A stretch of 64,000 nt of DNA from Minisyncoccota bacterium (GTDB taxonomy: Bacteria > Patescibacteriota > Minisyncoccia > Phycocordibacterales > JABAAK01), in contig OY764332.1 of NCBI GenBank assembly GCA_963668425.1, forward strand, positions 105,241 to 169,240, in the 5' to 3' direction. A program made the position numbers and the translations under genes. Positions 1-34,659 of this stretch are shown one piece after another; the first letter of the stretch is position 1; each line of letters opens with the position of its first letter. The notes under the pieces are model-generated. The model did no database searches. It was given only the letters and a program-made list of their open reading frames with translations, and was not told the origin of the DNA.

Positions 1-632
1 CCGACAATAGAGGCGATCTCAACTTCCACAAACTCTCTCATTGTCTTAAATGAAGGGGTCTGTAACTCGCCCGGAGTAACGAGCGGGTTGTTTCCAATCG
101 TGAACCATTTCATGCCCCTCTTAATGGGGTATGCTTCTTCACGATCTTTGCAGCCCTCCACCGTGGCAATTCCCACTACCCGATGAATTGGCTCCTCTTC
201 AACCTTCTCGTCAAGGTCGACTGAGAAGAAGAGGGGGAAATTCCTTGACCCTCTTGCGGCGTCAAGTGTCGCTTGGGCTCCGCCCTCAACGCTAAAGCGG
301 GAGAGGGCGCTGACGAGATGTTTGTATTCCTCGTCATCTCCAACACGGAGAAACCCTTTTGCATCTTCAAAGGTCATGATCTGTTTCATATTCCGTTCAA
401 CCATGAGGCGGGATATGGAGAGATCAGGTTTGACCTCTTCGATTTCGGATTCGGAGGGCTCTAGATTTTCATCCAAGCCCTCATCCGAATCCTCTTCAAC
501 TTCAACCTTCTTGATAGCGTCAACGATTCTGTTGACGCCGGGAATGGAAACATGTTCCCCATTCCATGCTTTTAGCACGAATGAGGATGCTATCAACACC
601 AACCCGAGCAACACCAATCCTAATACTTTCAT
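1..632 (-). CDS. hypothetical secreted protein, C-terminus truncated by window edge
   Basis: Minus-strand frame is open from ATG at 632..630 down to base 1, checked codon by codon with no stops. N-terminus MKVLGLVLLGLVLIASSF is signal-peptide-like. It is absent from the ORF track, presumably because it has no stop inside the window. Confidence 0.4.
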   Translation of the reverse strand, partial: MKVLGLVLLGLVLIASSFVLKAWNGEHVSIPGVNRIVDAIKKVEVEEDSDEGLDENLEPSESEIEEVKPDLSISRLMVERNMKQIMTFEDAKGFLRVGDDEEYKHLVSALSRFSVEGGAQATLDAARGSRNFPLFFSVDLDEKVEEEPIHRVVGIATVEGCKDREEAYPIKRGMKWFTIGNNPLVTPGELQTPSFKTMREFVEVEIASIV

Positions 633-989
633 TTTTTTCCTCCCCCGTATTGCGGGATTTTTCCCGCGTGGCGGGAGTTGTTTCTTTTGTGATCTAAATT
701 TTTTGTTTTGAATGAATTAGGTTACACACTCTGTGCAACCTATATAAAATAACGATATATATTACTTTATATAGGATGCTCAGAAAGCGATTTCTGTCTA
801 TAATATACCATTTTGAGTATATTTTGTCAACCCCTCTTGAATGTAGATGATGGTATCTTTTAGTAGTGTACCACATGTCTTGAAATGCTCACTATGTTTG
901 AAATACCCTTTTGTATTAGGGTTTTTAGGAGTATAAAAAAATGCCCCCTACTATAAAAGTAGGAGGGCTTGGTGTTCTTAAAGGATCAA

Positions 990-1886
990 TTATGCTTCAA
1001 CGGCTTCCGCAGTATCGGCAGTATCGGTATCGGCGTTTCGGTTCCGGTTTCGGTTCCGGTTTCGGTTTCTGCGCCGAGGCGTTGCCGCTGTTTCGGTTTC
1101 ACGAGCGCGTTTCTCACGAAGTGCTTCAGCCATGGCCTCTTTCTCTTCTGCAGCCGATGCCTTCTTGGCATCCCGCTTCTCTTTCCAGGACTTTGCCATG
1201 GAGAGAACTTTCCCGGACGCTATCCACAGCAGGATCACTATGCCGGCAAAGACGATTATGTCTGCCAAGTCCATCCCGCCATTTGTGGGTGGGAAGGCGT
1301 TTTTTTCCTCTTTCTCTACAACCTCAGTTTGACCGAGGAGAGAGAGGAGATAGGTGTTTGCCAATGCATACCCTTCGACCGATTGCAGGACTCGATCCAT
1401 CTTTGCCAGTGGCAAATTTGGATCTGTCGCCGCGACAGTCAGTGCCTGGGCGGTTCGATTGTTTTCGCTTATGGCGCTCTCTATTGCCTTGCGGTCTCCA
1501 GATTGCAGGTCTTTGTATCGATCTGCAATCGCCTTCTGTCCATTCCCATAAACTAAGCCGAGGGTGATCTGACGCTTAACTATTGGATCGTTAATTGCGT
1601 TGATGATCTCCGCGGCATTTTCTGTTTCACCTTCAACGACCACTGTGGAACCCTCTTCAGCGTTAAACTTTGAAGAGTATTCTATAGTGACGTCATTTAC
1701 GCCATTCGCCTCATTTGCGGAGGCAGGCGTCTCGTGTGTGGCAACTTCTGGTGTCGTTGCTGTTGTGCCGAAGGACACACCGTCAATGGCCACTGCTGAA
1801 AGGGTGAGAACCATAATCAAAAAAGCTGCTGTCGTACTAATCTTTAAAAACATTTTCAAATTTCCTTTTTTTCTATGACCAACCAA
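990..1886 (-). CDS. hypothetical secreted/membrane-anchored protein with C-terminal (RN)6 and DT repeats
   Basis: 298-aa ORF with N-terminal signal/TM (LKISTTAAFLIMVLTLSAVA). C-terminal basic tail RRRNRNRNRNRNRN is encoded by tandem cggttt/cggttc hexamers at about 1008-1072. Antisense ORFs over this span are rejected. Confidence 0.5.
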   Translation of the reverse strand: MVGHRKKGNLKMFLKISTTAAFLIMVLTLSAVAIDGVSFGTTATTPEVATHETPASANEANGVNDVTIEYSSKFNAEEGSTVVVEGETENAAEIINAINDPIVKRQITLGLVYGNGQKAIADRYKDLQSGDRKAIESAISENNRTAQALTVAATDPNLPLAKMDRVLQSVEGYALANTYLLSLLGQTEVVEKEEKNAFPPTNGGMDLADIIVFAGIVILLWIASGKVLSMAKSWKEKRDAKKASAAEEKEAMAEALREKRARETETAATPRRRNRNRNRNRNRNADTDTADTAEAVEA

Positions 1887-2082
1887 TGATTATAATACTC
1901 AAAAAAAATGATTTGTCAACCCATGACCTTGTCCCGTGCAATATACCACTGCTTAACACGCTGTATGGATTCATTCTTACGAGAACATATAGCACACGCC
2001 CCCTTGTCTTGTAATAAAAAAATCACCCCGAGAAAAGAAAACATAGAAACTATGTATTTTCTCAGGGCAATTGGATGGAACT

Positions 2083-2601
2083 CTACTCAACATTCAGTCC
2101 GGGCTTAGTTGCCCCAATGACCGTGGAGCCCCCCTTGAATTGGTGATTAAAGGTCGCCTTGACCTTCATATCAGTTTCTCGATCTGTGTTAGCAAGGCCG
2201 ACTAATGCTTCTTTTCCGACCCTGAATCCATGTTTCGGGGCGCCAACAACTTTGGCTCCCCCTTTTGCGTCAAATGTCTCGTTTCCACGAATGACTAGCC
2301 GCACAGGGCGACGGGTATTCCCGTTGATTTCCCCGACTTGTGGGGCACGTGCTTTTTGCACTCCGATGGCGGTTGCCGCCTTCACCTGGACGTCTTGCTT
2401 CACGATCACTTTCAGATCAAGCTCAAGGTCTTGAGGTGTTGCAACAGCTGTAACCTCGGACGGAGTGGTTTCAACCGGGACCTCTATTACTTCAGGGGTG
2501 ACAGTTCCACAACCGGCCACAAGTGCCACTGTTATCGCCAGTGCGAACGCGATCATTAAATTTCTCATCATCTTCTCCTTTGCCCGCAGTAACGCAGGCA
2601 A
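2083..2601 (-). CDS. putative lipoprotein
   Basis: 172 aa with lipobox-like signal peptide IAFALAITVALVAGCGTV. No recognisable catalytic motif. Confidence 0.45.
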   Translation of the reverse strand: MPALLRAKEKMMRNLMIAFALAITVALVAGCGTVTPEVIEVPVETTPSEVTAVATPQDLELDLKVIVKQDVQVKAATAIGVQKARAPQVGEINGNTRRPVRLVIRGNETFDAKGGAKVVGAPKHGFRVGKEALVGLANTDRETDMKVKATFNHQFKGGSTVIGATKPGLNVE

Positions 2602-2669: not shown

Positions 2670-2969
2670 TCAACTGCACGTGGTTTCCATGAGGTGCTGT
2701 AAGGAAACTTGGATGTCTGATTCTGCCAATCTGCCGACAAAGCTGATAATTGTCCAGACAGAGGTGATGATGAAAATGCCTACAATACTCCAGCCGAGTT
2801 TGGCAAAAAGGTCTTTTCTTTCTGTTGATTCTGCACCGGCAATGAGCTTTATACTGATAATAATGAAAAATAGGATGGCAATGAAAAGCATTCCTGCCAT
2901 TAAAGGGTTTACAATGTGGTCAAATAGGTTGTCGGCTATGTTCTTTGCTGAGAGGGCGTATGTGAGCAT
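2670..2969 (-). CDS. small membrane protein, VirB2/TrbC-like pilin topology, paralog 1 of 5
   Basis: C-terminal hydrophobic helix, short charged loop (ESTERKDLFAKLGW), second hydrophobic helix. This module is shared with the ORFs at 3000, 3362, 5426 and 5770. Confidence 0.5.
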   Translation of the reverse strand: MLTYALSAKNIADNLFDHIVNPLMAGMLFIAILFFIIISIKLIAGAESTERKDLFAKLGWSIVGIFIITSVWTIISFVGRLAESDIQVSLQHLMETTCS

Positions 2970-2999
2970 ACAGGTTTAGTATACAAGGTTTATTAGGTT

Positions 3000-3359
3000 T
3001 TAGAGCGATTCTACTTTTCGGAATTCTATATTTGGATCGGGCTGTGATGACCCCCCTGTTCCTAACACTGCAGTTTGTAGAAAATACACTAATCCCCACA
3101 TGCTTACTAATACAAAAATACCTATAATGCCCCATAGTATTCGCTTTTTTGCATCTTCCGATGTGGCATTATCCTTGCGAATATAGTCCACTAGTCCCCA
3201 GAAAAAATAAAGGAAAATCAAGGTAACAGCTACGATAATGAGTGCTCTTATTGCCATAGAAAAATCATCAAATAGGAATAGTATTCTATCTATCTCTTGC
3301 AGGGCAGGACCTTTATCTCCTGTGTCTGCAAAAACCATTCCATGCGAGAGTGTCAGCAT
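3000..3359 (-). CDS. small membrane protein, VirB2/TrbC-like, paralog 2
   Basis: FLYFFWGLVDYIRKDNATSEDAKKRILWGIIGIFVLVSMWGLVYFL matches the family pattern hhhhGF/W..Y.R...AKKR..G..G.....S.WG. Confidence 0.5.
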   Translation of the reverse strand: MLTLSHGMVFADTGDKGPALQEIDRILFLFDDFSMAIRALIIVAVTLIFLYFFWGLVDYIRKDNATSEDAKKRILWGIIGIFVLVSMWGLVYFLQTAVLGTGGSSQPDPNIEFRKVESL

Positions 3360-3361
3360 AT

Positions 3362-4138
3362 TTAGTTACCTGTATACACTTGGATTCCTCTGTTTACATT
3401 TTTAGATATTCTTCTACAATTTGTTGTAAGATGATGGCATTGCTTTGGATCTACACATTCTGTTATTCCCTTTCTTCCACTTTTTGTATAGCAGGGTTTT
3501 TCTGCAGCACCAGCCCCAGGGATAAGCCCTGTGGTGTCCTGACCTGCAGCACTTAGTGCGTTTATATCCTGCTGTGTAATAGTATAGTTATATACGGTAG
3601 TATCACCTTCACTGAAATTTACTGTAGGCAAGGTCAGATCGTCAACCACTTCCCCTGCATTAATTCCTAATACTCCACGCACAAATCCGATGATACCCCA
3701 TAAGGTTACAATCACAAAAATCGCTGCTAATGAGTAGCCCATCCTTGTTTTTGCTGCCTCTTTGTCCTCTTCATCTCTAATGTATTTTACCAAGTTCCAG
3801 AAGAAGTAAAAGAATGCGGCGGTTACCACAATACCTACCATTGTTTGTAAGAGTACTGCAAACACGTTTGCCCCTTCGTAGAAGTTGCCTATTGCGTATG
3901 CAATGGTTCCGCCACATATAGGTGCACCTCCTCCTGTTGGGTGTGTATGTGAGTCAGCGTTTGTGCAGTGTTCTATTGGAAGATTATTAACAAGGTAGGG
4001 ATCGGCATATGCTGTGTGTTGCGAGAGAGTAAAAAGGAATACTATACTCGTAATGATCGCTACAATGAAAAAGATCTTGCTTATTGTTTGATTGTTGTGT
4101 ATGCTATTCATATGTAGTAAGTATATCCTGTTTTCCAT
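3362..4138 (-). CDS. membrane protein with Cys-containing extracellular N-domain and VirB2/TrbC-like C-terminal hairpin, paralog 3
   Basis: 258 aa. FFYFFWNLVKYIRDEEDKEAAKTRMGYSLAAIFVIVTLWGIIGF is the same two-helix module, preceded by a longer Cys/Gly-rich domain. Confidence 0.5.
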   Translation of the reverse strand: MENRIYLLHMNSIHNNQTISKIFFIVAIITSIVFLFTLSQHTAYADPYLVNNLPIEHCTNADSHTHPTGGGAPICGGTIAYAIGNFYEGANVFAVLLQTMVGIVVTAAFFYFFWNLVKYIRDEEDKEAAKTRMGYSLAAIFVIVTLWGIIGFVRGVLGINAGEVVDDLTLPTVNFSEGDTTVYNYTITQQDINALSAAGQDTTGLIPGAGAAEKPCYTKSGRKGITECVDPKQCHHLTTNCRRISKNVNRGIQVYTGN

Positions 4139-4252
4139 GTATTAAAGATAGTATGTGGATAAAAAATGGAGTCACTTTCTCAATAAAATCTTGTTTTTTC
4201 TGCCTTGTGCTTTACAAATAATCTTGCCGGCAATGTAGTTATATCACAGGGT

Positions 4253-4280
4253 TGACAAAAATAATGGCAAGTGCTATAGT
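4253..4280 (+). promoter_or_regulatory. sigma70-like promoter, TTGACA-16 nt-TATAGT, in front of the non-coding transcript
   Basis: TTGACA at 4253-4258, 16-nt spacer, TATAGT at 4275-4280. No ORF of 60 aa or more follows on the plus strand. Confidence 0.55.
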
Positions 4281-4287
4281 GCTATCA

Positions 4288-4680
4288 GTGGTCGGGAAGC
4301 GTGGAGAAATCCCGCGTACCGGGACCCTGCTCTTTGATCACAGGAATTAATTGTGTTGAGGTGTTTAGTAACGTTCGTTGAAGGTCAGAGTAAGCGTGTG
4401 CCTTGGTTGGTTGCGCTGAAGATCTCCGAACTGTGAAAGACCATACCTCCTATTTTACTTCCTAGGCCATGGGTGGTCAGCGAATATAGTGCTTCTGGCT
4501 CATTCGCTCCCCTGGTTGAATTCTTACTTTCTAAAATTGCTCCCACTGTGTTTAAGGAAGGACGCGACCAACGTCACTGACCTTGCACTTTTAACCGACC
4601 AACCATCGTGTGGTTGAGCAGTGAGTGATACTAAGTAGACCCATTATGCCCAGACAATCGCGTCTGGGCATATTCTTTTA
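4288..4680 (+). ncRNA. candidate structured ncRNA of about 390 nt, possibly RNase P RNA (rnpB); class unconfirmed
   Basis: Consensus promoter upstream. Rho-independent terminator GCCCAGAC-aatcgc-GTCTGGGC plus T-tract at 4648-4680. No plus-strand ORF. Motifs resemble bacterial RNase P RNA: GGAGAAAUCCCGCG vs P4 GGAAAGUCCGGGC, GUAAGCGUGUGCC vs GUAAGAGCGCACC, and CAGUGAGUGAU..UAGAC near the 3' end vs CAGUGAGCGAU..UAGAUGA. The motif order is not fully consistent, so this is tentative. Confidence 0.4.
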
Positions 4681-4809
4681 TGTCTATATACTATGCACAC
4701 ATTGACATTGTGTGCGTTTTTTATTGACATACCACTTGTTCTTGCTTTATCATATAGGTATATGGTGTGGGGTTTGAATTCAAGTAACTTGTAAGCAGGA
4801 GGTGTACTA

Positions 4810-5367
4810 GTGAAACGGTTTGTTGTATTTTTTTTATTTTGCGTTGCTAGTTGTGTGTTGTTGCTGTATGGGTGTGGCAGTACGACACGCAGTGTCGGAG
4901 GTGGCTTATTGTTCAGCAACACACGTCGCTCAATTACGGCCATCGTTGTACATCACACTGCTGGCACGGCGAGCAATGATATACAGCAGGTTGCATCAGA
5001 GATTTCCCGGTTGCATAAACGGAAGTTTCGTAAGATGCGTAAGAGTGTTGGGTTGCATGTTGCTTACCACTACCTGATTACGCCAAATGGAAAGGTGTGG
5101 AAAGTGCGCGATCCGGATGATGTCGGCTATCACGCTGGCAACTGGAGTATCAATAAGCGATCTGTTGCTGTTTGCGTGGTTGGTGATTTTTCAAAGTATC
5201 ACCCGACCCGTGCGCAGGTACGATCTCTTGACACGCTGGTCAAAAAGATGCAGAGAGAGCGACAGATCAAGAATGTAATTCCACATTCTTATTGCAGAGC
5301 AACGCTCTGTTGTGGCGAATACCTGAAGCGAGAAGTTCGTAATCTCTCGTGGGGGAGATATTTTTAA
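4810..5367 (+). CDS. N-acetylmuramoyl-L-alanine amidase (Amidase_2/PGRP family)
   Basis: GTG start preceded by AGGAGGTG. Signal peptide present. AIVVHHTAG...GYHAGNWSINKRSVAVCVVGDF is typical of the Amidase_2 zinc-amidase domain. Terminator at 5393-5428. Confidence 0.7.
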   Translation: MKRFVVFFLFCVASCVLLLYGCGSTTRSVGGGLLFSNTRRSITAIVVHHTAGTASNDIQQVASEISRLHKRKFRKMRKSVGLHVAYHYLITPNGKVWKVRDPDDVGYHAGNWSINKRSVAVCVVGDFSKYHPTRAQVRSLDTLVKKMQRERQIKNVIPHSYCRATLCCGEYLKREVRNLSWGRYF

Positions 5368-5392
5368 CAACTATGATCTTTACTATTTGAAT

Positions 5393-5428
5393 ACCTAACA
5401 CACACTGTTGTGTTAGGTATTTTTTTTA
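5393..5428 (+). terminator. intrinsic terminator after the amidase gene
   Basis: ACCTAACACA-cactgt-TGTGTTAGGT followed by a T8 tract. Confidence 0.7.
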
Positions 5429-5773
5429 TCCGGTAAATATAGTACGCAGAAGATATACAAATCCCCAGAGGGAGAAGACAGCGAAGAGTGTGAGGATGCC
5501 GTAAAGGAGACGTTTCTTGGCGAGGTCTGCCATGTTGCTGTCGCCTTTACTTGCCCCGCGCATGTAGAGAACAATACCGTATATAAACATGAAGAGGAGA
5601 ATAGTTACTGCAAGCGGTATAAGCACTCCGCCAAGCGCTTGAATGACAAGATCTACTATGCCCTTGAGTGAGAGATTCTCCCAAGTTGGTTGGGCGTACA
5701 CGTTGCCTACGCTTGTTGCCATAATGCAGAGCAAGGGTATTGTTATTATTTTTATATATACACTCCTTTTCAT
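5426..5773 (-). CDS. small membrane protein, VirB2/TrbC-like, paralog 4
   Basis: LFMFIYGIVLYMRGASKGDSNMADLAKKRLLYGILTLFAVFSLWGFVYLL. Translationally coupled to the upstream paralog by a 4-nt overlap. Confidence 0.5.
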   Translation of the reverse strand: MKRSVYIKIITIPLLCIMATSVGNVYAQPTWENLSLKGIVDLVIQALGGVLIPLAVTILLFMFIYGIVLYMRGASKGDSNMADLAKKRLLYGILTLFAVFSLWGFVYLLRTIFTG

Positions 5774-6162
5774 ACTTCTCCTTCTTCCTGACCTCCAATA
5801 ACCTCCACCTTATACTCATCGTCCAGCACATCGTTGAGTGTATTTTGAATTACAAAGAGAATGCCACGCGCGCCGAGAACGAGAAACAAGCCAACCAAAG
5901 ACCACGCAAAAGCATCTTTCCACTTCGTATAATCAGCATTTTTTTCTTTGCCGGCAAGCACCATACGGAAACCAATGTAGGCAATGCCGAGTACAATAAT
6001 AGGCATTAAGATAATAGTAATACCCTCTGTCAGTGCCAGTATGAGTTCGCCGAGTGTATCATATTCCAATGGGTTACAAAAAATAACATCGGGGTCACAA
6101 TCCGCATATGCAAGGGTTGGAACAAATAGTGCAACTGCTGACAGTATAATGGCGTGTACCAT
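5770..6162 (-). CDS. small membrane protein, VirB2/TrbC-like, paralog 5
   Basis: IIVLGIAYIGFRMVLAGKEKNADYTKWKDAFAWSLVGLFLVLGARGILFVI has the same architecture. Confidence 0.5.
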   Translation of the reverse strand: MVHAIILSAVALFVPTLAYADCDPDVIFCNPLEYDTLGELILALTEGITIILMPIIVLGIAYIGFRMVLAGKEKNADYTKWKDAFAWSLVGLFLVLGARGILFVIQNTLNDVLDDEYKVEVIGGQEEGEV

Positions 6163-6223: not shown

Positions 6224-7564
6224 CTACTCAAACAGTGTTTCAATAACTCTTGCCTCTTGCTTTGCTGTGCGGATACCGATGATGACATTCTTTAGTGCAT
6301 TGAGCGTACCTGATATCATGCCTTGAGAGAGTGGTATACTTCTGCTACTAAAGAGCGTGTCAATGAATACTTGATCAGACGTGGTAGTGGCATTGAAAAA
6401 TGCTTCTATTTTTCTTGCTTCTTCGTCTGTACTGGTGAGTGCCAATCTTGATGCGCGATCAAAATTGTTAATTGGCACTGGTAATGAGGTTGCTTGAAAT
6501 ATTTCTGTCGGAAACCGTTGTATTGTTGTTGCCACATCAAATACAACCTGATGTGCGGGTCCCAGATGCCTGTTTTTTTTCGGAATAGCAAGAGCGTATA
6601 GTTTTGTCGGCACTACTGCTACACTGTTGGTAGCAAGTTGTGGCAATGGGGCAACCTGTATCACAATATTTGGATTCGCTCGTTGCAGGTCTTGATATTC
6701 GCTAATAAATCCCGGGTAAAATAAGAGTTGATTTCCAACAAACATGCTTCGCGCATTTAGAAATGTTTCACCCCATGTCTGTATAGGTGAGCGCAGTGCG
6801 ACAAATCTTGTATAAAATGTGATAAGGTCTTCTGTTGAGGGTGAGGCAGTGCCAAACTCCCGTGCCTGTAATATAAGTGTTGCAAAGAGATGTGGTGCAT
6901 TGGCATAGTTACCGTAGGCACCGAGTGGTATTATTGCCTTGTCAGTTTTCCTGTATGCCTCAGCAATCTCCTGATATTCTTTTTCAGTAAAATCTTCCCA
7001 TACTTTCGGCAGTTGGCGTAGATTACTTTGGCGGCGCAGGCCTTCGTTGTAATACAGCACTAAACTGTCCGCCACTACCGGCAGGGCAATATAGCCACCT
7101 GGACGTAAGAATATATTTGCTGGTGGGATGAATAGGTTCTGATACCCTGCAACAGTGGTTAATGGATGGTGCCCAAACGGGATGGTTTTTAATGCCGTAT
7201 GCTCAAACGCAAGTACCTCAGCCGACTCCAGCAGTAGCATATCTGGAGATCGTTCATCATATGCAACCGCTCGTACATACTCACTTTCTATGGCATTGGC
7301 ACTCTTTTTTACATACTGCACTGTATCATATCCCTTAGCCACACCACCCTGCGCCCTTCCAAGTATGGTATTTGCTACGCCGGCATCCAGTGTTCCCCAT
7401 ACAATAATTTCAATATGCTCCCGATTTTGTGCCGATCCTGATTCTGAAGATGTTGCTTGCTCGTTTTTTTGCAGGAGACCATACAACGCCAAACTACCGA
7501 AGCCGACAAGGACAAAAAAGCCGAATACAACATAGGTAACGATTTGAAAATTTTGTTTGTTCAT
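6224..7564 (-). CDS. membrane-anchored extracellular solute-binding-like protein (SBP family 1-like), function unknown
   Basis: 446 aa with N-terminal TM. IIVWGTLDAG resembles the start of type-1 periplasmic binding proteins. The annotation is weak. Confidence 0.35.
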   Translation of the reverse strand: MNKQNFQIVTYVVFGFFVLVGFGSLALYGLLQKNEQATSSESGSAQNREHIEIIVWGTLDAGVANTILGRAQGGVAKGYDTVQYVKKSANAIESEYVRAVAYDERSPDMLLLESAEVLAFEHTALKTIPFGHHPLTTVAGYQNLFIPPANIFLRPGGYIALPVVADSLVLYYNEGLRRQSNLRQLPKVWEDFTEKEYQEIAEAYRKTDKAIIPLGAYGNYANAPHLFATLILQAREFGTASPSTEDLITFYTRFVALRSPIQTWGETFLNARSMFVGNQLLFYPGFISEYQDLQRANPNIVIQVAPLPQLATNSVAVVPTKLYALAIPKKNRHLGPAHQVVFDVATTIQRFPTEIFQATSLPVPINNFDRASRLALTSTDEEARKIEAFFNATTTSDQVFIDTLFSSRSIPLSQGMISGTLNALKNVIIGIRTAKQEARVIETLFE

Positions 7565-7578: not shown

Positions 7579-10026
7579 TTACTGCACCATAGTGCTTGCA
7601 GTCAGTATATCATCTCCTTTCAGTTTCATAACCCGCACCCCCTGTGTTTGTCGTCCACGTTCAGGTATTTCACTTGTTGCCATCCGTACTATTTGTCCTT
7701 TCTTAGACATTGTAATTAATTCATCATCTGATTTTTCAAGCAGTATGTGAATGCCGACAACCTTTCCGGTTTTTGTTGTCACTTCAGCGGCCTTGATACC
7801 GCCACCGCCGCGTTTCTGTATCTTGAATAATGAAACCTTTGTCTGTTTGCCATATCCTTTCTCAGCGATAGTTAATAGACGACTTTTTGCTTTTGCATCT
7901 TCCTGTATTACTAGCGCGCCGATAACGCTGTCTTCTTTTCCGAGCCGTATTCCACGGACACCTTTTGCAGAGCGACCGGATGCTCGCACTTCTTTTGCCG
8001 TGAAGCGAATTGCCTTACCGCCCCGACTTACCAGAATGATTGTGTCTTCGTTCGCGCAGAACATCGTATTCACTAACTGGTCTCCCCGATCAAGCGAAAC
8101 GGCTATGATTCCGCTCTTACGGATATTCTCAAACTGGTCTATCGTAACTTTTTTAATTGTCCCGTTTTGTGTTACAAAGAAAAGATATGCATTTTTCTTT
8201 GTGTCTTGTGATACTGGTATTATGGATGTTACTCGTTCATCCGCGTCTATTGAGATAAAGTTGACCAGCGCACGCCCTTTGCTGGTTCGTTTTGCTTCAG
8301 GTATCTCGTATGCTTTTAGTTGATACACTTTACCCTTGTCAGTGAAAAAGTAGAGTGTGTCGTGTGAACTTGCGCTGATAGAGATAGTGGTAAAATCCTC
8401 TTCTTTCAATTCTGCCCCTTTGGTGCCGATGCCGCCGCGTCGTTGCTGTTTGTATTCATCATTGGTAGTGCGCTTGATGTATCCGCCCCCGGTAATCATA
8501 ATGATGCACTGTTTTTCAGGGATAAGATCTTCATCGGCTACTGCGTTATGTGCCTGACTTACTATCTTAGTACGACGGTCATCTCCAAACAGATCCCGTG
8601 CTTCCTGTATCCCTTTTCCTACCTCTTCATCAACTTTTTTCTTGCTTTGTAAAATATCTTCTAACCGCTTAATGGTTTTCTTCAAATTCTCCAATTCATC
8701 TTCCACTTTTTTTCGTTCCAGTCCCGCGAGTTTTTGTAATCGCATTTCTAAAATGGCATTTGCCTGCACTTCGGAGAATGTGAATGTTTTCATCAGTGCT
8801 TTTCGCGCATCAGACACTGCCTGTGATTTTCTGATGAGTGCAATAATCTTATCTATATGATCCAGTGCTTTTTTTAATCCTTCTACAATATGCGCCCGCT
8901 CTTTTGCCCGCGTTAAATCAAATTTGACTGCCCGTTCAACAATTATTCGCCGATGATCTATGTATGCCTGTAGCAGTTGATGCAGGGTTAGCGTTTGTGG
9001 TATACCGTTGAGCAGTCCGACGACGTTGTAGTGATACGTTTCCTGCAGTTGCGTGTGCTTGTAGAGCGCGTTTTGTAGTCGATGAGGTTGCGCGTTTGCT
9101 TTTAATTCAATGACAATGCGTATATCGTCTGTTGATTCATCACGAAGATCCTTGATACCTTCTATTTTTTTATTACGTACCAACTCTCCTATTTTTTCAA
9201 TCATTCGCGCTTTGTTTACTCGGTACGGAATGGAACTAATAACTAAACTGACACCTTTTTTATCTTCTACAATCTCAACTTCACCTCGCACCAAAACACC
9301 GCCCCGCCCAGTTGCATATGCCTGTGCTATGGCTTTTTTATCATATGCAATCGCACCCATTGGAAAATCAGGTCCTTTGATGTGCTCTAACAGGTCTTCC
9401 GTAGTGGCATCAGGATCTTTGATCAGGTGTGTCAGTGCATCGCACACCTCCCGCAAATTGTGTGGCGGAATATCTGTTGCCATACCAACTGCAATGCCGA
9501 GTGTTCCGTTGGCTAATAAATTTGGCACTTTTGCTGGCAGTACCTTCGGCTCTTCAATAGTGTTTTCATAATTTGGTACGAAATCTACTGTTTTCTTTTC
9601 AATATCTTCCATCATCTTTTCTGCATACGCAGACATCTTTGCTTCAGTGTATCGTTCTGCCGCAGGTGGATCGCCATCTATAGAACCAAAGTTTCCCTGT
9701 CCAGTTACCAAAGGATACCGCGTAACAAAGTTCTGGGTCATTTTTGCCATCGCCTCATATACCGCCAAATTGCCGTGTGGATGATACTTACCAAGTGTTT
9801 CACCAACCACGGTTGCAGATTTACGGGTCTTTGTGGAATGTCGCAATCCCATGCCAAACATCGCATAGAGAATACGTCGTTGCACTGGTTTCAAGCCGTC
9901 CTGAACATCAGGCAATGCTCGTGCGGTAATAACAGACATTGCATAGTCCAGATACGCACTACGCATCTCTTCGGTGATATCTTTACTAAAAATCTTTGCA
10001 CCCTGATTTGCCGTGTCTTCTGCCAT
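7579..10026 (-). CDS. gyrA: DNA gyrase subunit A
   Basis: 815 aa with canonical GyrA N-terminus ([20 protein letters not shown]-like YHPHGN active-site region) and C-terminal beta-pinwheel repeats. Confidence 0.95.
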
Positions 10027-15109: not shown

Positions 15110-16963
15110 ATGGATATCAAAAGAATTGTTAGTATTGGTTGGCTTGCTGCTATTGCGGTAGCCGCATTATTTCTCTTTAATTACAGCCCGATGGAACCAG
15201 TTATGGGTCCGGCTAATCCGACAACGCCCGCAGTGGTACTGCCTCAAGTACAAACACCTGATACGGTGGTGGTACCTGAAGTGCAAATCCCTGGCGTGGT
15301 TCCGTTGCTTTCAGCACCTGATGTGGTGCTCAATCAAGCGGCAATTGACGCCGCAAAGAGTTCCGCACTGTACACCCAGATACTTGTAGCGCTCGTGTTA
15401 CTTTTGGGTAGTGCGGGACTTGTGATTGCCCGCGGGTATGAGAGCCCAGGTCCCAAAGCTGTTGCTGTAGGGGGGGGAGCCGCGTCACTTGCTGTGGCAG
15501 CGGTGATGTTCAGCCAGGACTGGATACCCTCTGAGGTACTCCCGTCGGGACTTGCACTTCTCGCCATTGCCGCAGCAACGACAGGGCCTGTCCTGCAACT
15601 CATGGCACCAGATCAAAAGGTGTTGGATGAGTTGGATGAAGCCGAGGAAGAGGCTGAAGGACTTGAAGCAGATCTTGAATCTGCCGAAGAAGAGATCGAA
15701 AAATCTCTAAAGGTCGTAGAAGGGCTGAAGAAAGGTCTTGAAACTGCCAAGGCGGAAGCCAAGGCGGTTGGCGGCAAAGTTGCTGACGCAGAAAAGAGCG
15801 CCCAACAGGCGGTCGAGCGCGCAGATGTTGCTGAGAAAGCCGCCGCTGAGGCAGTGGAAGCACGGCATACTGCTGAGTCCGCGCAAGCGACTGCTGAAGC
15901 AGAAGCCACCACACTCCGTGGACATGCGGAACGCGCGGAAGCAAACTCTGCTGACTTACAGGTTCGCCTCAGCTCTTTTGAAGAGCGTAAAGTAGCGGAT
16001 CAGGAAGCTTTGAATCTCTCTGTTGCAGAGGAAGATCTTGCTGTTGCAAAGCAGCGAGTAACCTCGATCCAAAACGACCTACAGGTCGCAGAGGCAGAGC
16101 AGCAGCGCTTGCACACTGCGCATAGCGATGCAGTTAGTGCAGCTGATACTGCTTGGACCGCTGTTGAGGAAGCCGCAAAGGCCGCTCTTAAAACAGAGGC
16201 AACGCTTGTCGAGGCAAGTAAGGCGTCTGACGCGGCAGCGGAAGCCGTCGCCAATGGCGTCAAGATTCTTGACTCTGACGGTCTCGCACAGCAACTCGCT
16301 GATGCTGATGTGGAACATGGCAAAGCGGCAGACGCACTTACTCATCTCAACTCTGAGGCACGTAACGCTGACATTACTATCGGACGTCTTGCTTCTGAGT
16401 TTGAAGTTGCTAAAGCAAAGGTTGCTGATGTAACTGTAAACCTTGAAACAGCGAAGAGTAACCTTGATGTGGCGAAGGTTTCTGTTGACGAGGTGGCCAA
16501 AGTCGCTGAGGCGGCAGAGATTGAAGCAGTCGCCGCCAAACGTCGCTTCGCCGCACTCGTTGCTGCCGAACAGCAGAGTGCTGAACTGGCAACACAGGTT
16601 GCTAGTGAGCGAGCAGAGAAGGAAGCACTTGTCGCTCAGAACACTGAACTGAAAGACGCAGTGAAGGATGCCTTACGTGCATCTGGCTGTACGCTTTCAC
16701 TTGACAGGTTTGCTGCTGACGAAGACGTCGCTCGTTACCGAGCCGAGCTTCGTATGGCACAACCAAATGAGATCACCTTCGGAGTTCATATTGAAGACGA
16801 TGAAGGTGAAGAGGTACTTTTCCGAACAATTCCGGCTGGTCAAAAGTACTCGGAGGGTTTTGATGTGGATCGCGGCTACAATGCCAAAATTCGTGTCTTG
16901 CCCCCAGGGCAGACCGCGGATGCCCTCGGCACCTCCGAAATTGTTCCTTACTTGGTGGCATAG
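15110..16963 (+). CDS. membrane-anchored Ala/Glu-rich coiled-coil protein
   Basis: 617 aa with N-terminal hydrophobic segments and then a long low-complexity A/E/K coiled-coil. The many overlapping antisense ORFs in this higher-GC stretch are rejected. Confidence 0.55.
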   Translation: MDIKRIVSIGWLAAIAVAALFLFNYSPMEPVMGPANPTTPAVVLPQVQTPDTVVVPEVQIPGVVPLLSAPDVVLNQAAIDAAKSSALYTQILVALVLLLGSAGLVIARGYESPGPKAVAVGGGAASLAVAAVMFSQDWIPSEVLPSGLALLAIAAATTGPVLQLMAPDQKVLDELDEAEEEAEGLEADLESAEEEIEKSLKVVEGLKKGLETAKAEAKAVGGKVADAEKSAQQAVERADVAEKAAAEAVEARHTAESAQATAEAEATTLRGHAERAEANSADLQVRLSSFEERKVADQEALNLSVAEEDLAVAKQRVTSIQNDLQVAEAEQQRLHTAHSDAVSAADTAWTAVEEAAKAALKTEATLVEASKASDAAAEAVANGVKILDSDGLAQQLADADVEHGKAADALTHLNSEARNADITIGRLASEFEVAKAKVADVTVNLETAKSNLDVAKVSVDEVAKVAEAAEIEAVAAKRRFAALVAAEQQSAELATQVASERAEKEALVAQNTELKDAVKDALRASGCTLSLDRFAADEDVARYRAELRMAQPNEITFGVHIEDDEGEEVLFRTIPAGQKYSEGFDVDRGYNAKIRVLPPGQTADALGTSEIVPYLVA

Positions 16964-24084: not shown

Positions 24085-24141
24085 ATAGTACAATGAAATC
24101 ATTTATATCATTAACAGCACAATGAAATCATTTATATCATT
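24085..24141 (+). repeat. tandem duplication including the start codon region of the SBP gene
   Basis: ACAATGAAATCATTTATATCATT occurs twice, at about 24089-24111 and 24119-24141. AATTAATAGTACAAT and AAAAGAATATGTG duplications lie just upstream. Confidence 0.7.
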
Positions 24142-25873
24142 CCGCCCTCATCCGGGTATATACAAAAAATTACCTCTATCAGATGCCTGCGTCGTACTCT
24201 TTCTGATGAGCATTCTTTGCGTGCAACTTTTTTTTCTCCTTCTTGCCCTTAACAACACTTTTCTACATGAAACAATTGTTCGTCGCGGAGAAATTAACGA
24301 AGGTGTTATTGGTGTGCCGATATACAAAAATCCTCTGTATGCGGACAATGCCGCAGAGAAAGATGTCGTTGCACTCATGCATGCTGGCTTACTCAAATAT
24401 ACTATTGCCGGCGAGCTCATTCCACACCTCGCTAAAACATGGAGGCAAGATAGTCCAAACCGTTATACATTCACCCTCAGGAAAAATGCTTCTTTTCACG
24501 ACGGCTCTCTTATAACTACAGCAGATGTACTTTACACCATCGGAATGATCCAAGAGGAACAAAAATATAAAACGCATCTTCACGAAGCGTGGCGTGATGT
24601 TGTTGTAGAGGACGTAGATGACATGACTCTTGCATTCACTATCCCTGAAGGAAACCTTCACTTCCCTGAACAATTCACTATTCCTATTCTTCCGAAACAT
24701 GTTTGGAAAAAAATACCGACAGATAAGCAACGCAACTACAATGGTTCAGGTGTACACATTGGCGCAGGTCCGTACAAATATAATCAAGAAACTATAACCT
24801 TAGACGGACGCCCAACGAATATAACTCTTGAAGAATTTTCTGGCTATGTTCTTGGCAGGCCCTTCATTAAAAAAATTACTTTGCACTTTTTTGTGGATGT
24901 TATTGATCTCCTTCAGGCATATCAGACCGGCATTATAGACAGTGTCTATGGTATCGCCGGTGGTGAAGTGACGGCACTCCTCAAGCAAAGAAAGGAAGAG
25001 GGTGAGATTCATACCGCTTATACTAACCGCGTCTTTGGTGTATTCTTCAATGCTGAAGATGGTCGTATTCTTCAGGACTCCTTTCTTCGTAGCATTCTCT
25101 CTCAGTGGGTTAAGCGTGAATATATTATCAACCAAGTGTTCAGCACGCATGCCACTCCCATACAACACCCACTTCCGACCGATGTCAGCATAAAAGAACA
25201 AGACATAACACTCGCAGAGATCAAACAGACGTTAGAAGACATTAATTGGGACTTTGAATCTGCTACTGGGTATCGTGAACAAGATGGCGTCCCTCTTAAG
25301 ATTTCTTTTGTCATCCCTGATATTAAAGAAGCACAGCAGATAGCGGATATGCTTACGGAAGGATGGCGACGACTCGGCATTGCTGTAACAACAAAAACTG
25401 TTCCAGAAAAAGAGATTGTTACTACCATACAAGAAAAGGATTTTGATGCCATACTCTACGGCTATGAAGCAAATACTGTGAAAGATTTGGTCGCATTATG
25501 GAAATCTGGCAACCGTGAAAATCTCGCTTCAATCACTAGTTTTGGTAGCCCAACACTTAATAATCTTCTCACTGACTTGGAGCAATTCACTCCCCCACAA
25601 CGCCTTATTGAGCAGTTATCCCGAACCCCTGATGACAACTGGCGGAATATAGTGTATGATGCTGTTAAGGTAGAGATGACGAAAAATGTTCCGGCAATTT
25701 TTCTTTATTCGCCTCACTTTCTCTATATACTACCCAAGAATATCAAAAGGGTGGATCTACAAACAGGACAGCAACAGATCGGGAGGATAACAGATTCAAG
25801 CGATAGGTTTATCAATGTACATAAATGGTACACCCAACGGGAGAAGGTGTGGAAACCTTTTGTTGAGAATTAA
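24122..25873 (+). CDS. extracellular solute-binding protein, family 5 (OppA/DppA-like peptide-binding)
   Basis: 583 aa with N-terminal TM/signal. Size and blocks are typical of SBP_bac_5. Confidence 0.5.
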   Translation: MKSFISFRPHPGIYKKLPLSDACVVLFLMSILCVQLFFLLLALNNTFLHETIVRRGEINEGVIGVPIYKNPLYADNAAEKDVVALMHAGLLKYTIAGELIPHLAKTWRQDSPNRYTFTLRKNASFHDGSLITTADVLYTIGMIQEEQKYKTHLHEAWRDVVVEDVDDMTLAFTIPEGNLHFPEQFTIPILPKHVWKKIPTDKQRNYNGSGVHIGAGPYKYNQETITLDGRPTNITLEEFSGYVLGRPFIKKITLHFFVDVIDLLQAYQTGIIDSVYGIAGGEVTALLKQRKEEGEIHTAYTNRVFGVFFNAEDGRILQDSFLRSILSQWVKREYIINQVFSTHATPIQHPLPTDVSIKEQDITLAEIKQTLEDINWDFESATGYREQDGVPLKISFVIPDIKEAQQIADMLTEGWRRLGIAVTTKTVPEKEIVTTIQEKDFDAILYGYEANTVKDLVALWKSGNRENLASITSFGSPTLNNLLTDLEQFTPPQRLIEQLSRTPDDNWRNIVYDAVKVEMTKNVPAIFLYSPHFLYILPKNIKRVDLQTGQQQIGRITDSSDRFINVHKWYTQREKVWKPFVEN

Positions 25874-25882: not shown

Positions 25883-27667
25883 ATGGCAACACCAAAAAGA
25901 AGTTACAAAAAACCACGTCCAACACGACAAAAAGGCAAAGCAGCCCCCATCAAAAAAGCAAAAAAAGTATTTATCCCGAAGCCAAATCGGGGTGAGATTC
26001 GTGCGCTTGTGTTCGGCGGTATATCAGAAATCGGCAAAAATATGTACGGTATTGAATACAACAATAACATTGTGCTATTGGAGTGCGGCACTATGTTTGG
26101 CGAGAGCAACACCCCTGGCGTGAATACCGTGATGCCGAATATTCAATATCTTAAAGATAGAAAACAAGATGTTAAAGCGCTCGTTGTAACGGACGCTTCA
26201 ATGAAGCATATCGGTGCTATTCCGCATGCTATTCGTGATATAGGAAGCCCGACAATATATGCCAGAAAACTTACCAAGGCAATTATAGAGAATCATCAAA
26301 GCACCCTTCGTAAAAAATCAACCCTAACATTTCACGAAGTAGAAAAAGCGGAGTCAGTTACTATTAACGACGATATTACTCTTCACTTTTTTGGTGTTAC
26401 CGACAACACACCGAGCACTCTTGGTGTGCTTGTAGAAACTTCTTCTGGCTGTGTTGCCTATACCGGCAACCTAAAGGTGAGTCACAACAAAGAGGTTATT
26501 CGTGCTGAAGAGGAAAAGGTATTTCAGGCAGCAAAGGAAAAGGAGGTTGTTCTTTCTCTCGCTGATTCAGTAGGATCAGAACGTCCTGGCTTTGCCATCA
26601 CCGATGATGAGATTGCTAAAGAAATTGATCAGATGATGCAAGAGGCACCGTATCGTGTGATGACACCTCTCTTCCCTTCTCAGATAAAAAGGAATGCAAT
26701 GATATTGGAAAAAGCTCTCCGAGCAGGTAAAAAAATCTATGTAGAAGGATCACTCCTGTTGGAAAATCTTCAAACTGCTTCTGACCTTGGTATAGCCCAG
26801 ATACCGAAAGAAGCCCTCATTCCTATACAAGAGATGAAAAAAGAAGAGGATGACTTGAAAAAAGTATTTATTGCTTTTACTGCCCAAGAGAATGAGATCT
26901 GTGAGGCATTAGAAAGCATTTCTCGAGAAAGTTATCGGCATACTTCTGTCATTACAAAAGATACTATTATATTTCCTTCACCAATGATCCCCACAAATGC
27001 ACAAGCGATTCAAAACCTTAAAGACCGCCTTTCCCGTCTTGGCGCAATAACCCGATCCTATGATACTAGCGATGTTAAAGGCAGTGGACATGCTAATAAG
27101 AGTGAGTTGCGTTGGATGCACCAACTCCTCAATGCGAAATTCTTTATCCCTCTGCAGGGTTACCACTATATGTTGAATGCACATACTCATATACTTCGCG
27201 AACTCGGTATGAGTCAGGATTCTTTTGTTATACCGGAAAATGGAACAATAGTAGATATTAGCCCAGATGGTCAGGTGATTAAAAAACAGAAACAACAAAT
27301 GGAAACTACTGCGGTATCCATTGACGGACATACTCTCGCTCCGATACAGGAAGTTGTGATACAAGACAGGAACACTCTTTCCCAAGAGGGTATATTTATT
27401 ATCATTGTTTTCATTGACCGCAAAACTTTTGAGGTTAAGAAATCTCCTGACATTATCTCTCGTGGCTTTATATACTTGCGAGAGTCGCAAGATCTCATTG
27501 CGCGTGTCCGGATTGTTATTAAAAAAGCTGCTGAAAAAGAAGCGGAAGAAGCCGGTCAAATAGAAATTGATAAAATGAAAAAAGTAATACAAAAAGAAGT
27601 CCAAACCTTTCTGGTGAACGAGACCAGCAAACGACCGATTATTGTTCCTGTTATATTCACTCAATAA
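25883..27667 (+). CDS. RNase J-like metallo-beta-lactamase/beta-CASP protein with degenerate motif II (likely non-catalytic paralog)
   Basis: Collinear with the downstream RNase J (GGISEIGKNMYGIEY, SGHANKSEL motif C). HxHxDH is replaced by VTDASMKHIG. Basic N-terminal tail. Confidence 0.8.
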   Translation: MATPKRSYKKPRPTRQKGKAAPIKKAKKVFIPKPNRGEIRALVFGGISEIGKNMYGIEYNNNIVLLECGTMFGESNTPGVNTVMPNIQYLKDRKQDVKALVVTDASMKHIGAIPHAIRDIGSPTIYARKLTKAIIENHQSTLRKKSTLTFHEVEKAESVTINDDITLHFFGVTDNTPSTLGVLVETSSGCVAYTGNLKVSHNKEVIRAEEEKVFQAAKEKEVVLSLADSVGSERPGFAITDDEIAKEIDQMMQEAPYRVMTPLFPSQIKRNAMILEKALRAGKKIYVEGSLLLENLQTASDLGIAQIPKEALIPIQEMKKEEDDLKKVFIAFTAQENEICEALESISRESYRHTSVITKDTIIFPSPMIPTNAQAIQNLKDRLSRLGAITRSYDTSDVKGSGHANKSELRWMHQLLNAKFFIPLQGYHYMLNAHTHILRELGMSQDSFVIPENGTIVDISPDGQVIKKQKQQMETTAVSIDGHTLAPIQEVVIQDRNTLSQEGIFIIIVFIDRKTFEVKKSPDIISRGFIYLRESQDLIARVRIVIKKAAEKEAEEAGQIEIDKMKKVIQKEVQTFLVNETSKRPIIVPVIFTQ

Positions 27668-27673
27668 GTACCA

Positions 27674-34057: not shown

Positions 34058-34077
34058 ACAGTGATCTTTATTGTTCA

Positions 34078-34647: not shown

Positions 34648-34659
34648 ACAAGTGCTTTA

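What the first reader, a model, noticed from the sequence alone, without database searches (positions are those of the whole stretch)
2670..6162. Family of five VirB2/TrbC-like small membrane proteins clustered downstream of gyrA
Five ORFs are in the same orientation, with three contiguous and two overlapping by 4 nt. All end in the same module: hydrophobic helix, charged loop with an AKKR/AKTR-like stretch, then a second helix with an S.WG motif. This is the topology of conjugative or T4SS pilins. The N-terminal parts vary from none to a 150-aa Cys-containing domain. No VirB4/VirB6/relaxase is present in the window, so the function is open: T4SS-like pilus, competence, or a novel surface filament. 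A structured ncRNA candidate and a peptidoglycan amidase interrupt the cluster.
Basis: partly seen in the sequence, partly recalled or inferred. Interest (0 to 1): 0.55.

Follow-up and report, generated by a model that had tools for sequence, protein, structure and literature searches.

The report
Patescibacterial VirB2-like T4SS pilin gene array

Summary
The five minus-strand ORFs exist as described. All five score above the curated cut-off of Pfam PF18895 (T4SS_pilin). No other ORF in the 64 kb carries the module. The window comes from a Kaiserbacteria-like Patescibacterium (class Paceibacteria).

Arrays of 2-11 divergent VirB2-like pilin genes, in tandem or split by one non-pilin gene, are already published for this phylum (PMC12102498). 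A six-gene PF18895 array is essential in Southlakia epibionticum (PMC10633639). This locus is therefore a new member of a known kind.

- P3 does not end in the module. A Cys-containing tail of about 105 aa follows it.
- The AKKR/AKTR and S.WG motifs occur in three of the five proteins.

New here:
- Each paralog has its own ortholog, in the same order, in related genomes.
- No VirB4, VirB6 or VirD4 lies in the window.
- The array sits directly behind a membrane-anchored solute-binding-like gene. That linkage recurs in 49 of 60 diverse Patescibacteria loci.
- The "ncRNA candidate" inside the array is a structured RNA of about 310 nt with no Rfam match (covariation z = -7).

Whether these proteins form a pilus remains inferred.

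The parts
5770..6162 (-). P5, VirB2-like pilin paralog (130 aa). It has a signal peptide ending AYA|DC and a conserved Cys pair (DCDPDVIFCNPL) before the helical hairpin.
   Evidence: PF18895 40.8 bits and TrbC PF04956 21.7 bits. The AF2 model has helices 37-70 and 78-112, mean pLDDT 68.8. Orthologs are 80% and 61% identical in L001 and L006.
5426..5773 (-). P4, pilin paralog (115 aa). It has a signal peptide ending VYA|Q, an AKKR loop and SLWG. Its start overlaps the P5 stop by 4 nt.
   Evidence: PF18895 26.9 bits. NCBIfam NF045849 25.5 bits, below the cut-off. Orthologs are 81% and 71% identical.
4810..5367 (+). N-acetylmuramoyl-L-alanine amidase lipoprotein (185 aa, lipobox LLYGC). It is convergent with P4, has its own promoter at 4724-4753 and a terminator at 5389-5422.
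   Evidence: Amidase_2 E = 5e-23. PHROG amidase and endolysin families hit it. It is conserved at this position in L001, L006, L092, L093, L094 and L095, but absent from 78 of the 80 SBP-anchored loci.
4252..4717 (+). Independent transcription unit for a structured RNA of unknown family. Promoter TTGACA-17-TATAGT at 4252-4280; start near 4287; structured core about 4289-4601; terminators at 4645-4672 and 4693-4717.
   Evidence: Promoter scores 11 of 12 with an extended TG, and both terminators are found. No Rfam match in the window, L001 or L006 copies. RNAalifold on three sequences gives 27 covarying pairs against 13.6 +/- 3.3 in column shuffles, and an energy z of -7.2. The same promoter occurs at the same place in seven genomes.
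3362..4138 (-). P3, extended pilin paralog (258 aa; the start is probably the ATG at 4111). Layout: signal peptide, then an N-terminal piece with two Cys, then the pilin hairpin at aa 97-153, then a C-terminal tail of about 105 aa with four Cys.
   Evidence: PF18895 28.7 bits at residues 97-153. Cys positions are 58, 75, 216, 228, 234 and 241. The near-identical homologue P0001 (from a near-identical strain, contig 130,672 bp) starts at residue 10. It is the most variable paralog: 63% and 43% identity to orthologs.
3000..3359 (-). P2, pilin paralog (119 aa). It has only an 11-aa leader, an AKKR loop and SMWG.
   Evidence: PF18895 36.3 bits. Orthologs are 63% and 62% identical. Some orthologs carry a full signal peptide (P0030).
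2670..2969 (-). P1, pilin paralog (99 aa). It has no signal peptide and is the most conserved of the five.
   Evidence: PF18895 29.8 bits and TrbC 17.3 bits. Orthologs are 85-86% identical. P0018 is 100% identical and lies on a 696,550-bp NCBI/ENA contig.
6224..7564 (-). Membrane-anchored solute-binding-protein-like gene (446 aa, one N-terminal TM helix). It lies 14 nt after gyrA and 61 nt before P5. It is a conserved upstream partner of pilin arrays.
   Evidence: SBP_bac_8 30.8 bits. TM helix at residues 5-32. In 49 of 60 SBP-anchored loci, pilin-module ORFs follow it within 8 kb; only 2 of 58 have one upstream.
7579..10026 (-). gyrA. This is a context gene at the head of the likely gyrA-SBP-P5-P4 transcription unit.
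   Evidence: The translation is 91% identical to the genes annotated DNA_topoisoIV + DNA_gyraseA_C in L001.
990..2601 (-). Two conserved downstream genes of unknown function: a 172-aa lipoprotein (2083-2601, own promoter at 2673-2645) and a 298-aa protein with a signal peptide and a C-terminal TM helix (990-1886). The N-terminus of a homologue of the 581-aa protein of L001 (the window copy runs off its start, so its length is unknown) follows at 1 to about 560.
   Evidence: No Pfam or NCBIfam hit. The same order is kept in L001, L006 and L092, at about 52% identity.

Best explanation
The five genes are a chromosomal array of divergent VirB2-like pilin paralogs (Pfam T4SS_pilin, PF18895). This kind of array belongs to the type IV secretion-like apparatus of Patescibacteria.

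Shown here:
- Each protein is a helical hairpin of two hydrophobic helices joined by a short charged loop.
- Three of the five have cleavable-looking signal peptides.
- The five are old paralogs (about 20-40% identical over the module). Each has its own ortholog, in the same gene order, in related genomes.

Inferred from what is established for VirB2/TraA pilins:
- The proteins are inserted by Sec with both ends outside and the basic loop in the cytoplasm.
- They form a membrane pool and are extracted and polymerised by a VirB4-type ATPase/VirB6 machine encoded elsewhere in the genome.
- The product is an extracellular filament or conduit that contacts the host cell.
- The conserved short forms (P1, P2, P4, P5) would be structural subunits.
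- P3, whose Cys-containing N- and C-terminal pieces would both face outward, would be a decorated or minor subunit.
- The lipoprotein amidase inside the array could open the cell wall locally, a VirB1-like role.
- The upstream membrane-anchored solute-binding-like protein is a conserved partner of unknown role.
For: - All five pass the PF18895 gathering cut-off. They are the only such ORFs in the 64 kb.
- The family is large: 15,084 representatives at 50% identity match the profile at E <= 1e-3. NCBI names one ortholog 'pilin' and a Portnoybacteria relative 'TrbC/VirB2 family protein'.
- The six essential pilin genes SEML1_0014-0019, inside the T4SS cluster of S. epibionticum, are all PF18895 proteins (PMC10633639 Tables S1/S2; main text).
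[quoted passage not shown] The window matches this: 3 + 2 genes, with 19-27% global identity of P2-P5 to P1 in the MAFFT alignment.
- The AF2 model of P5 is a two-helix hairpin.
- One-to-one orthologs at 43-86% identity, in the same order, occur in L001, L006 and L092-L095.
- 11 of 16 sampled Kaiserbacteria MAGs are listed as having VirB4 (PMC12102498 Table S1).
Against: - No VirB4, VirB3, VirB6 or VirD4 lies in the window: about 58 kb on the gyrA side of the array, and only about 2.7 kb on the other.
- None lies within 10 kb of the array in relatives.
- Among 80 SBP-anchored loci, only one large ORF (at least 450 aa) with a Walker A motif proved HerA/VirB4-like.
- Whether this genome has VirB4 at all could not be tested.
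- Homology to classical VirB2 is not demonstrable here beyond Pfam. A PDB sequence profile search found no VirB2/TraA. Foldseek found nothing at E <= 1. hhalign against five annotated MPF_T VirB2/TrbC proteins gave probability 8%.
- Family members with 2-6 fused hairpin modules, or with protease, lytic transglycosylase or adhesin-repeat fusions, exist. None is reported for classical T4SS pilins in the papers read here, as far as I know.
- The papers read here do not report an observed pilus made of these proteins. The 2025 review speaks only of a 'potential to elaborate conjugative pili'.
Confidence: 0.65

Rival explanations
1. The array is a T4SS-independent envelope module. The PF18895 hairpin would act as a two-helix membrane anchor, or as a membrane oligomer, that displays variable outward-facing domains. 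It would work together with the conserved upstream membrane-anchored solute-binding-like protein, for example in host contact or nutrient capture, without being polymerised by VirB4.
For: - The SBP-like gene is followed by pilin-module ORFs in 49 of 60 loci from very different Patescibacteria. ORF density is 0.48 per kb downstream against 0.013 per kb upstream.
- A VirB4-like ATPase is essentially never within 10 kb of these loci.
- Some hairpin modules are fused to Peptidase_S8 + SLT, to InlB B-repeats or to Cys-rich domains. Others occur as 2-6 tandem copies in one chain.
- P1 and P2 lack a normal signal peptide.
Against: - In the only organism tested genetically, PF18895 genes sit inside the T4SS cluster and are essential together with it.
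- In 1,135 of 1,948 assemblies a pilin gene lies near virB4.
- The SBP linkage could be inherited gene order. In Moranbacteria-type loci the housekeeping GTPase BipA lies between the SBP gene and the array.
- Outward-facing fusions are also compatible with a decorated pilus, because both termini of VirB2/TraA-type pilins face outside (established knowledge of F and T pili).
Confidence: 0.2
2. The small two-helix proteins are holins. Together with the adjacent Amidase_2 they would form a phage-type lysis cassette.
For: - The proteins are small with two hydrophobic helices.
- They lie next to an amidase that matches phage endolysin and amidase PHROGs.
Against: - None of the five hits any PHROG family.
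- The amidase is a lipoprotein with its own signal sequence and promoter on the opposite strand.
- There are no other phage genes nearby, and the locus keeps the same order from gyrA through the SBP-like gene and all five pilin genes in eight related chromosomal loci (L001-L003, L006, L092-L095).
- The pilin array occurs without the amidase in 78 of 80 SBP-anchored loci.
Confidence: 0.02
3. The proteins are type IV pilus or competence pseudopilins.
For: They are small, are found in an array, and would be surface exposed. Patescibacteria rely on type IV pili.
Against: - None of the five has the N-terminal prepilin methylation motif; there is no PF07963 hit.
- True type IV prepilins with the GFTLIELL motif are encoded elsewhere in the window, at 29707-30543 and 33530-35199.
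Confidence: 0.02

Closest known systems
VirB2-like pilin arrays of Patescibacteria (S. epibionticum ML1 SEML1_0014-0019; survey in PMC12102498)
   Same: - Same Pfam family (PF18895).
- Same phylum.
- Several sequence-divergent paralogs (about 25% identity) in tandem or separated by one non-pilin gene.
- Chromosomal location.
   Different: - Here the array is not in a T4SS cluster. It lies behind gyrA and a solute-binding-like gene, is split by an amidase and an RNA gene, and has no VirB4 or VirB6 in the 64-kb window.
- Essentiality is known only for the Saccharibacteria array.
Classical VirB2/TrbC pilins (Agrobacterium T-pilus VirB2, Pfam PF04956)
   Same: - Size of about 100-130 aa.
- Leader peptide followed by two hydrophobic helices with a short basic loop.
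- Weak PF04956 hits for P5 and P1, and above-threshold hits for some family members.
   Different: - The window proteins are below the PF04956 cut-off.
- Profile-profile comparison with five annotated VirB2/TrbC proteins is not significant.
- No virB1 or virB3 neighbours, whereas these flank the annotated virB2 genes.
- The host is a monoderm.
Multiple VirB2 paralogs of Bartonella and Anaplasma T4SS (as cited in PMC12102498)
   Same: Tandem, diverged copies of the pilin gene in a host-dependent bacterium.
   Different: Those arrays are thought to serve antigenic variation. Here each paralog is conserved one-to-one across genomes (P1 85-86%). That points to fixed, distinct subunit roles rather than rapid variation.
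Mbov_0395 family pilin-like conjugal transfer protein of Mycoplasma ICEs (NCBIfam NF045849)
   Same: P1-P4 align over nearly the whole 80-residue model with E = 4e-6 to 2e-5. This links the module to conjugative elements of wall-less monoderms.
   Different: Scores of 24-26 bits are below the curated cut-off of 40, and P5 does not hit.

Membership tests
Pfam PF18895 T4SS_pilin | Whole-protein score at or above the gathering cut-off of 26.6 bits | tested here: met
   Scores are 29.8, 36.3, 28.7, 26.9 and 40.8 bits for P1-P5.
Pfam PF18895 T4SS_pilin | Two hydrophobic helices joined by a short charged loop (helical hairpin) | tested here: met
   Hydropathy segments are found in all five. The AF2 model of P5 has helices 37-70 and 78-112.
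Patescibacteria VirB2-like pilin array (PMC12102498) | Two or more pilin genes in tandem or separated by one non-pilin gene | tested here: met
   P5-P4 and P3-P2-P1 are separated by one protein gene (the amidase) plus an RNA gene.
Patescibacteria VirB2-like pilin array (PMC12102498) | Paralogs strongly diverged (mean about 25%, maximum 54% identity) | tested here: met
   P2-P5 are 19-27% identical to P1 in the global MAFFT alignment. The best local pair is 41.5%.
Patescibacteria VirB2-like pilin array (PMC12102498) | Host genome belongs to Patescibacteria | tested here: met
   The closest loci are Ca. Kaiserbacteria GCA_026713605.1 and a Ca. Paceibacterota chromosome, with GyrA 91% identical.
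Patescibacteria T4SS (VirB4-centred cluster) | VirB4 ATPase in the genome, often within 20 CDS of the pilins | not testable with these tools
   None lies in the window or within 10 kb in relatives. The rest of the 696,550-bp source contig could not be fetched. 11 of 16 sampled Kaiserbacteria MAGs are listed with VirB4.
Classical TrbC/VirB2 (Pfam PF04956) | Score at or above the gathering cut-off of 27.9 bits | tested here: not met
   P5 scores 21.7 bits and P1 17.3 bits; P2-P4 give no hit. A relative (L012:13522-14985) scores 38.4 bits.
Classical TrbC/VirB2 (Pfam PF04956) | Significant profile-profile or structural match to experimentally grounded VirB2/TraA pilins | tested here: inconclusive
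   hhalign gives probability 8% and aligns only helix 2. Foldseek against PDB gives no hit at E <= 1. The PDB sequence profile search finds only unrelated TM helices. Short hairpins carry little signal.
Classical TrbC/VirB2 (Pfam PF04956) | Polymerises into an extracellular pilus | not testable with these tools
   This needs microscopy or biochemistry.
NCBIfam NF045849 Mbov_0395 pilin-like conjugal transfer protein | Score at or above the cut-off of 40 bits | tested here: not met
   P1-P4 score 24.2-26.3 bits; P5 gives no hit.
Phage holins | Match to a holin family, in a lysis cassette within a phage context | tested here: not met
   No PHROG hit for any of the five. The chromosomal gene order is conserved.
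Type IV pilins (T4P) | N-terminal prepilin methylation motif (PF07963, G|FTLIE) | tested here: not met
   The motif is absent from all five. It is present in other window genes.

The most novel reading that the evidence does not exclude
The pilin arrays that follow the solute-binding-like gene, found across Paceibacteria and many other Patescibacteria, may form a distinct module that does not depend on VirB4. In this reading the VirB2-like hairpins are a membrane or surface scaffold. They occur as single units, as units fused in 2-6 copies, or carrying protease, lytic transglycosylase, adhesin or Cys-rich domains. They would work with an orphan membrane-anchored binding protein. In the Kaiserbacteria lineage a dedicated structured RNA of about 310 nt, encoded inside the array, would accompany or control them.
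Probability: 0.15. Interest if true: 0.65.

Novelty: new member of a known kind. Interest (0 to 1): 0.3.

Why it matters
VirB2-like pilin arrays belong to the only type IV secretion system known to be essential for its owner's growth. That system is thought to underlie how ultra-small Patescibacteria live on host cells.

This locus adds no new principle, but it sharpens three points:
- The paralogs are fixed, individually conserved subunit types rather than fast-varying copies.
- In Paceibacteria the array lies away from any T4SS ATPase and is tightly linked to a solute-binding-like membrane protein. The two main papers do not mention this protein.
- A new structured RNA sits inside the array.

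These points give testable leads on how, and with what partners, the proteins are used.

Tried and rejected
1. Fetching the source contig. Exact look-ups of window proteins P3, P1 and P5 found no indexed gene. The rest of the 696,550-bp genome, and so its VirB4 status, stayed out of reach.
2. Structural confirmation. The AF2 model of P5 is a plain hairpin with mean pLDDT 68.8. Foldseek against PDB gave only chance matches at E > 3.
3. Sequence link to solved pilins. A profile search of PDB sequences returned only photosystem and reaction-centre TM helices.
4. Profile-profile comparison. I used five annotated MPF_T VirB2/TrbC proteins, retrieved from plasmids with a recalled VirB2 probe that proved 100% identical to annotated virB2. 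The result was probability 8%.
5. Holin reading. Rejected.
6. Large unknown ORF as VirB4. The 617-aa ORF at 15110-16963 is a TM plus Ala/Glu coiled-coil protein with no P-loop.
7. The ~595-aa gene between the SBP gene and the array in Moranbacteria-type loci. It is BipA/TypA, not a T4SS part.
8. Identity of the RNA. RNase P, tmRNA, SRP, 6S and riboswitches were considered. No Rfam family matches any of three copies, even at E <= 1, apart from terminator-driven noise.
9. More RNA homologs. A metagenome scan for the RNA's promoter found only a copy identical to L001. More diverged copies came from protein look-ups instead. Four of them (L006, L093, L094, L095) are too diverged to align by sequence.

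Full report
**Observation.** P5 and P4 overlap by ATGA. P3 and P2 are 2 nt apart, and P2 and P1 are 30 nt apart. Aligned, they share a core of two hydrophobic helices with a charged loop of 12-17 residues between them. P2-P5 are 19-27% identical to P1 in the global MAFFT alignment, and the best local pair is 41.5%.

An HMM of the shared core finds exactly these five among 942 six-frame ORFs of the window; the next best hit has E = 0.16. The family is therefore not a by-product of hydrophobic composition.

- P3's module sits at residues 97-153 and is followed by a tail of about 105 residues with four Cys. Not all five proteins 'end' in the module.
- The AKKR/AKTR and [ST].WG motifs occur in P2, P3 and P4 only.
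- Signal-peptide-like N-termini ending A-Y-A occur in P3, P4 and P5. P2 has an 11-residue leader and P1 has none.

[quoted passage not shown] P5 and P1 also give sub-threshold TrbC/VirB2 PF04956 hits. P1-P4 also match, below threshold, the NCBIfam model for a pilin-like conjugal transfer protein of Mycoplasma ICEs. None hits any phage family, holins included.

A profile of the family matches 15,084 representatives at 50% identity in a library of 1.84 billion proteins. NCBI names one ortholog 'pilin' and a Portnoybacteria relative 'TrbC/VirB2 family protein'. An AF2 model of P5 is a two-helix hairpin with helices 37-70 and 78-112 and mean pLDDT 68.8.

I could not strengthen the link to classical VirB2 beyond Pfam:
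- A PDB sequence profile search gave nothing relevant.
- Foldseek against PDB gave nothing relevant.
- hhalign against five annotated MPF_T VirB2/TrbC proteins gave nothing significant.

Short hairpins carry little signal, so these results are inconclusive rather than negative.

**Organism and context.** The window is chromosomal. It holds gyrA, ftsA/ftsZ, a sigma-70 factor, two RNase J genes, dnaK/dnaJ, gltX, a 16S rRNA gene and one tRNA. P1, P5 and the upstream gene are identical to proteins on a 696,550-bp NCBI/ENA contig.

The nearest fetched loci are a Candidatus Kaiserbacteria MAG and a Candidatus Paceibacterota chromosome, with GyrA 91% identical. They show the same order: gyrA, SBP-like gene, P5, P4, amidase on the opposite strand, gap, P3, P2, P1, then three conserved genes of unknown function. 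Four further ENA contigs show the same layout.

Each paralog has its own ortholog. Identities to L001 / L006 are:
- P1: 85% / 86%
- P4: 81% / 71%
- P5: 80% / 61%
- P2: 63% / 62%
- P3: 63% / 43%

The five are therefore old, individually maintained subunit types.

None of the 31 window ORFs (172-815 aa) scanned against Pfam matches VirB4, VirB6, VirD4 or a relaxase, and a check for membrane helices and Walker A motifs (the only check run on 62753-63904) finds no polytopic or VirB4-like candidate among the rest. The one large unknown ORF (617 aa) is a TM plus coiled-coil protein without a P-loop.

**What is already known.**
- PMC12102498 searched 3,035 Patescibacteria genomes with PF04956 and PF18895. 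It reports VirB2-like pilins in 1,948 VirB4-containing assemblies, near virB4 in 1,135 of them. [quoted passage not shown] Its tables list SEML1_0014-0019 as PF18895 proteins scored essential.

The window's locus is thus a new instance of a described kind.

**Mechanism.** The best-supported reading is that the proteins are Sec-inserted hairpins with both ends outside and the basic loop inside. They would be drawn from the membrane and polymerised by a VirB4/VirB6 machine encoded elsewhere. P3 would display its Cys-containing N- and C-terminal pieces on the outside. These steps are inferred from classical VirB2/TraA biology and from the Saccharibacteria genetics. None is shown for this locus.

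I could not test whether this genome has VirB4. In Table S1 of PMC12102498, 11 of 16 sampled Kaiserbacteria MAGs do.

**What appears to be new.** Using the upstream solute-binding-like gene as an anchor, I fetched 80 loci from one genome per species and scanned them with my own pilin HMM. Pfam confirmed that HMM at E <= 0.002 on all nine large hits I checked, eight of them above the 26.6-bit cut-off and one (L041) at 18.6 bits. The results:
- Of 60 loci with at least 3 kb downstream, 49 have at least one pilin-module ORF within 8 kb downstream, and 48 have at least two.
- Of 58 loci with at least 3 kb upstream, 2 have one upstream.
- Density is 0.48 ORFs per kb downstream against 0.013 per kb upstream.

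The linkage holds where gyrA is absent, and in Moranbacteria-type loci where BipA and other genes are inserted between the two. Only one large ORF with a Walker A motif in all these loci proved HerA/VirB4-like. Neither paper mentions this gene.

The family also contains proteins with 2-6 fused hairpin modules, and fusions to Peptidase_S8 + SLT, InlB B-repeats and Cys-rich domains. These facts keep a T4SS-independent 'display scaffold' reading alive at about 0.2. They are also compatible with decorated pili and with inherited gene order.

**The interrupting elements.** The amidase (4810-5367, + strand) is a lipoprotein with its own promoter and terminator. It is conserved only in the Kaiserbacteria-like loci, so a VirB1-like wall-opening role is only a suggestion.

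The 670-nt gap holds an independent + strand unit. It has a near-consensus promoter (4252-4280), a structured core (about 4289-4601) and two terminators. No Rfam family matches any of three copies.

The promoter and the first bases of the transcript are conserved at the same position in seven genomes, while the body diverges quickly. On the three alignable copies, RNAalifold finds 27 covarying pairs against 13.6 +/- 3.3 in column shuffles (0 of 200 shuffles reach 27). The energy z-score is -7.2; the two-sequence test gave z = -5.0. This is a credible new structured RNA of unknown function, possibly antisense to the leader of the P3-P2-P1 operon.

**Verdict.** The locus is a new member of a known kind. 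Interest is modest at 0.3, lifted slightly by the SBP linkage and the RNA.

Noticed in passing
window 4252-4717 (+): A structured RNA of about 310-430 nt with its own strong promoter and two terminators lies inside the pilin array. It has no Rfam match. The promoter and position are conserved in seven Kaiserbacteria-like genomes. Covariation is well above shuffled controls (z = -7.2; 27 against 13.6 covarying pairs).
   Followed up: partly
window 6224-7564 (-); loci L006-L085: A membrane-anchored solute-binding-protein-like gene sits directly upstream of PF18895 pilin arrays in 49 of 60 diverse Patescibacteria loci, a 36-fold enrichment downstream over upstream. The two main papers on these T4SS do not mention this linkage.
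   Followed up: partly
P0123, P0189; L084:12665-15154; L082:11420-13534; L012:13522-14985: Family members exist with 2-6 tandem pilin hairpin modules in one polypeptide. Others are fused to Peptidase_S8 + SLT lytic transglycosylase, InlB B-repeats or Cys-rich ectodomains. Such fusions are not reported for classical T4SS pilins in the papers read here, as far as I know.
   Followed up: partly
window 33530-35199 (-) and 29707-30543 (-): Three tandem type IV (T4P) prepilin genes with the GFTLIELLIVIAIIGVLA motif, plus a fourth N_methyl protein. This is a separate, genuine type IV pilin array in the same window.
   Followed up: no
window about 36000-48000: A low-GC stretch (0.34-0.39) carries an AAA_15/AAA_21 ATPase (37302-38408), a Schlafen AlbA_2 protein (40945-42171), a Dam-type methyltransferase (44544-45425) and several ORFs without Pfam hits. 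It looks like a defence or mobile island.
   Followed up: no
window 15110-16963 (+): A 617-aa protein with about four N-terminal TM helices and a long Ala/Glu-rich coiled coil. It has no Pfam hit.
   Followed up: partly
window 25883-29614 (+): Two RNase J paralogs lie in tandem, preceded by an SBP_bac_5 gene (24122-25873). The SBP_bac_5 and RNase J pair also lies upstream of the SBP-pilin block in a Parcubacteria locus (L069).
   Followed up: no
window 1-2601 (-): Three genes downstream of the array are kept in the same order in relatives and have no family assignment: a 172-aa lipoprotein, a 298-aa protein with a signal peptide and a C-terminal TM helix and ETETGT/RNRN repeats, and the start of a homologue of the 581-aa protein of L001 (the window copy runs off its start). 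They may belong to the same envelope module.
   Followed up: partly
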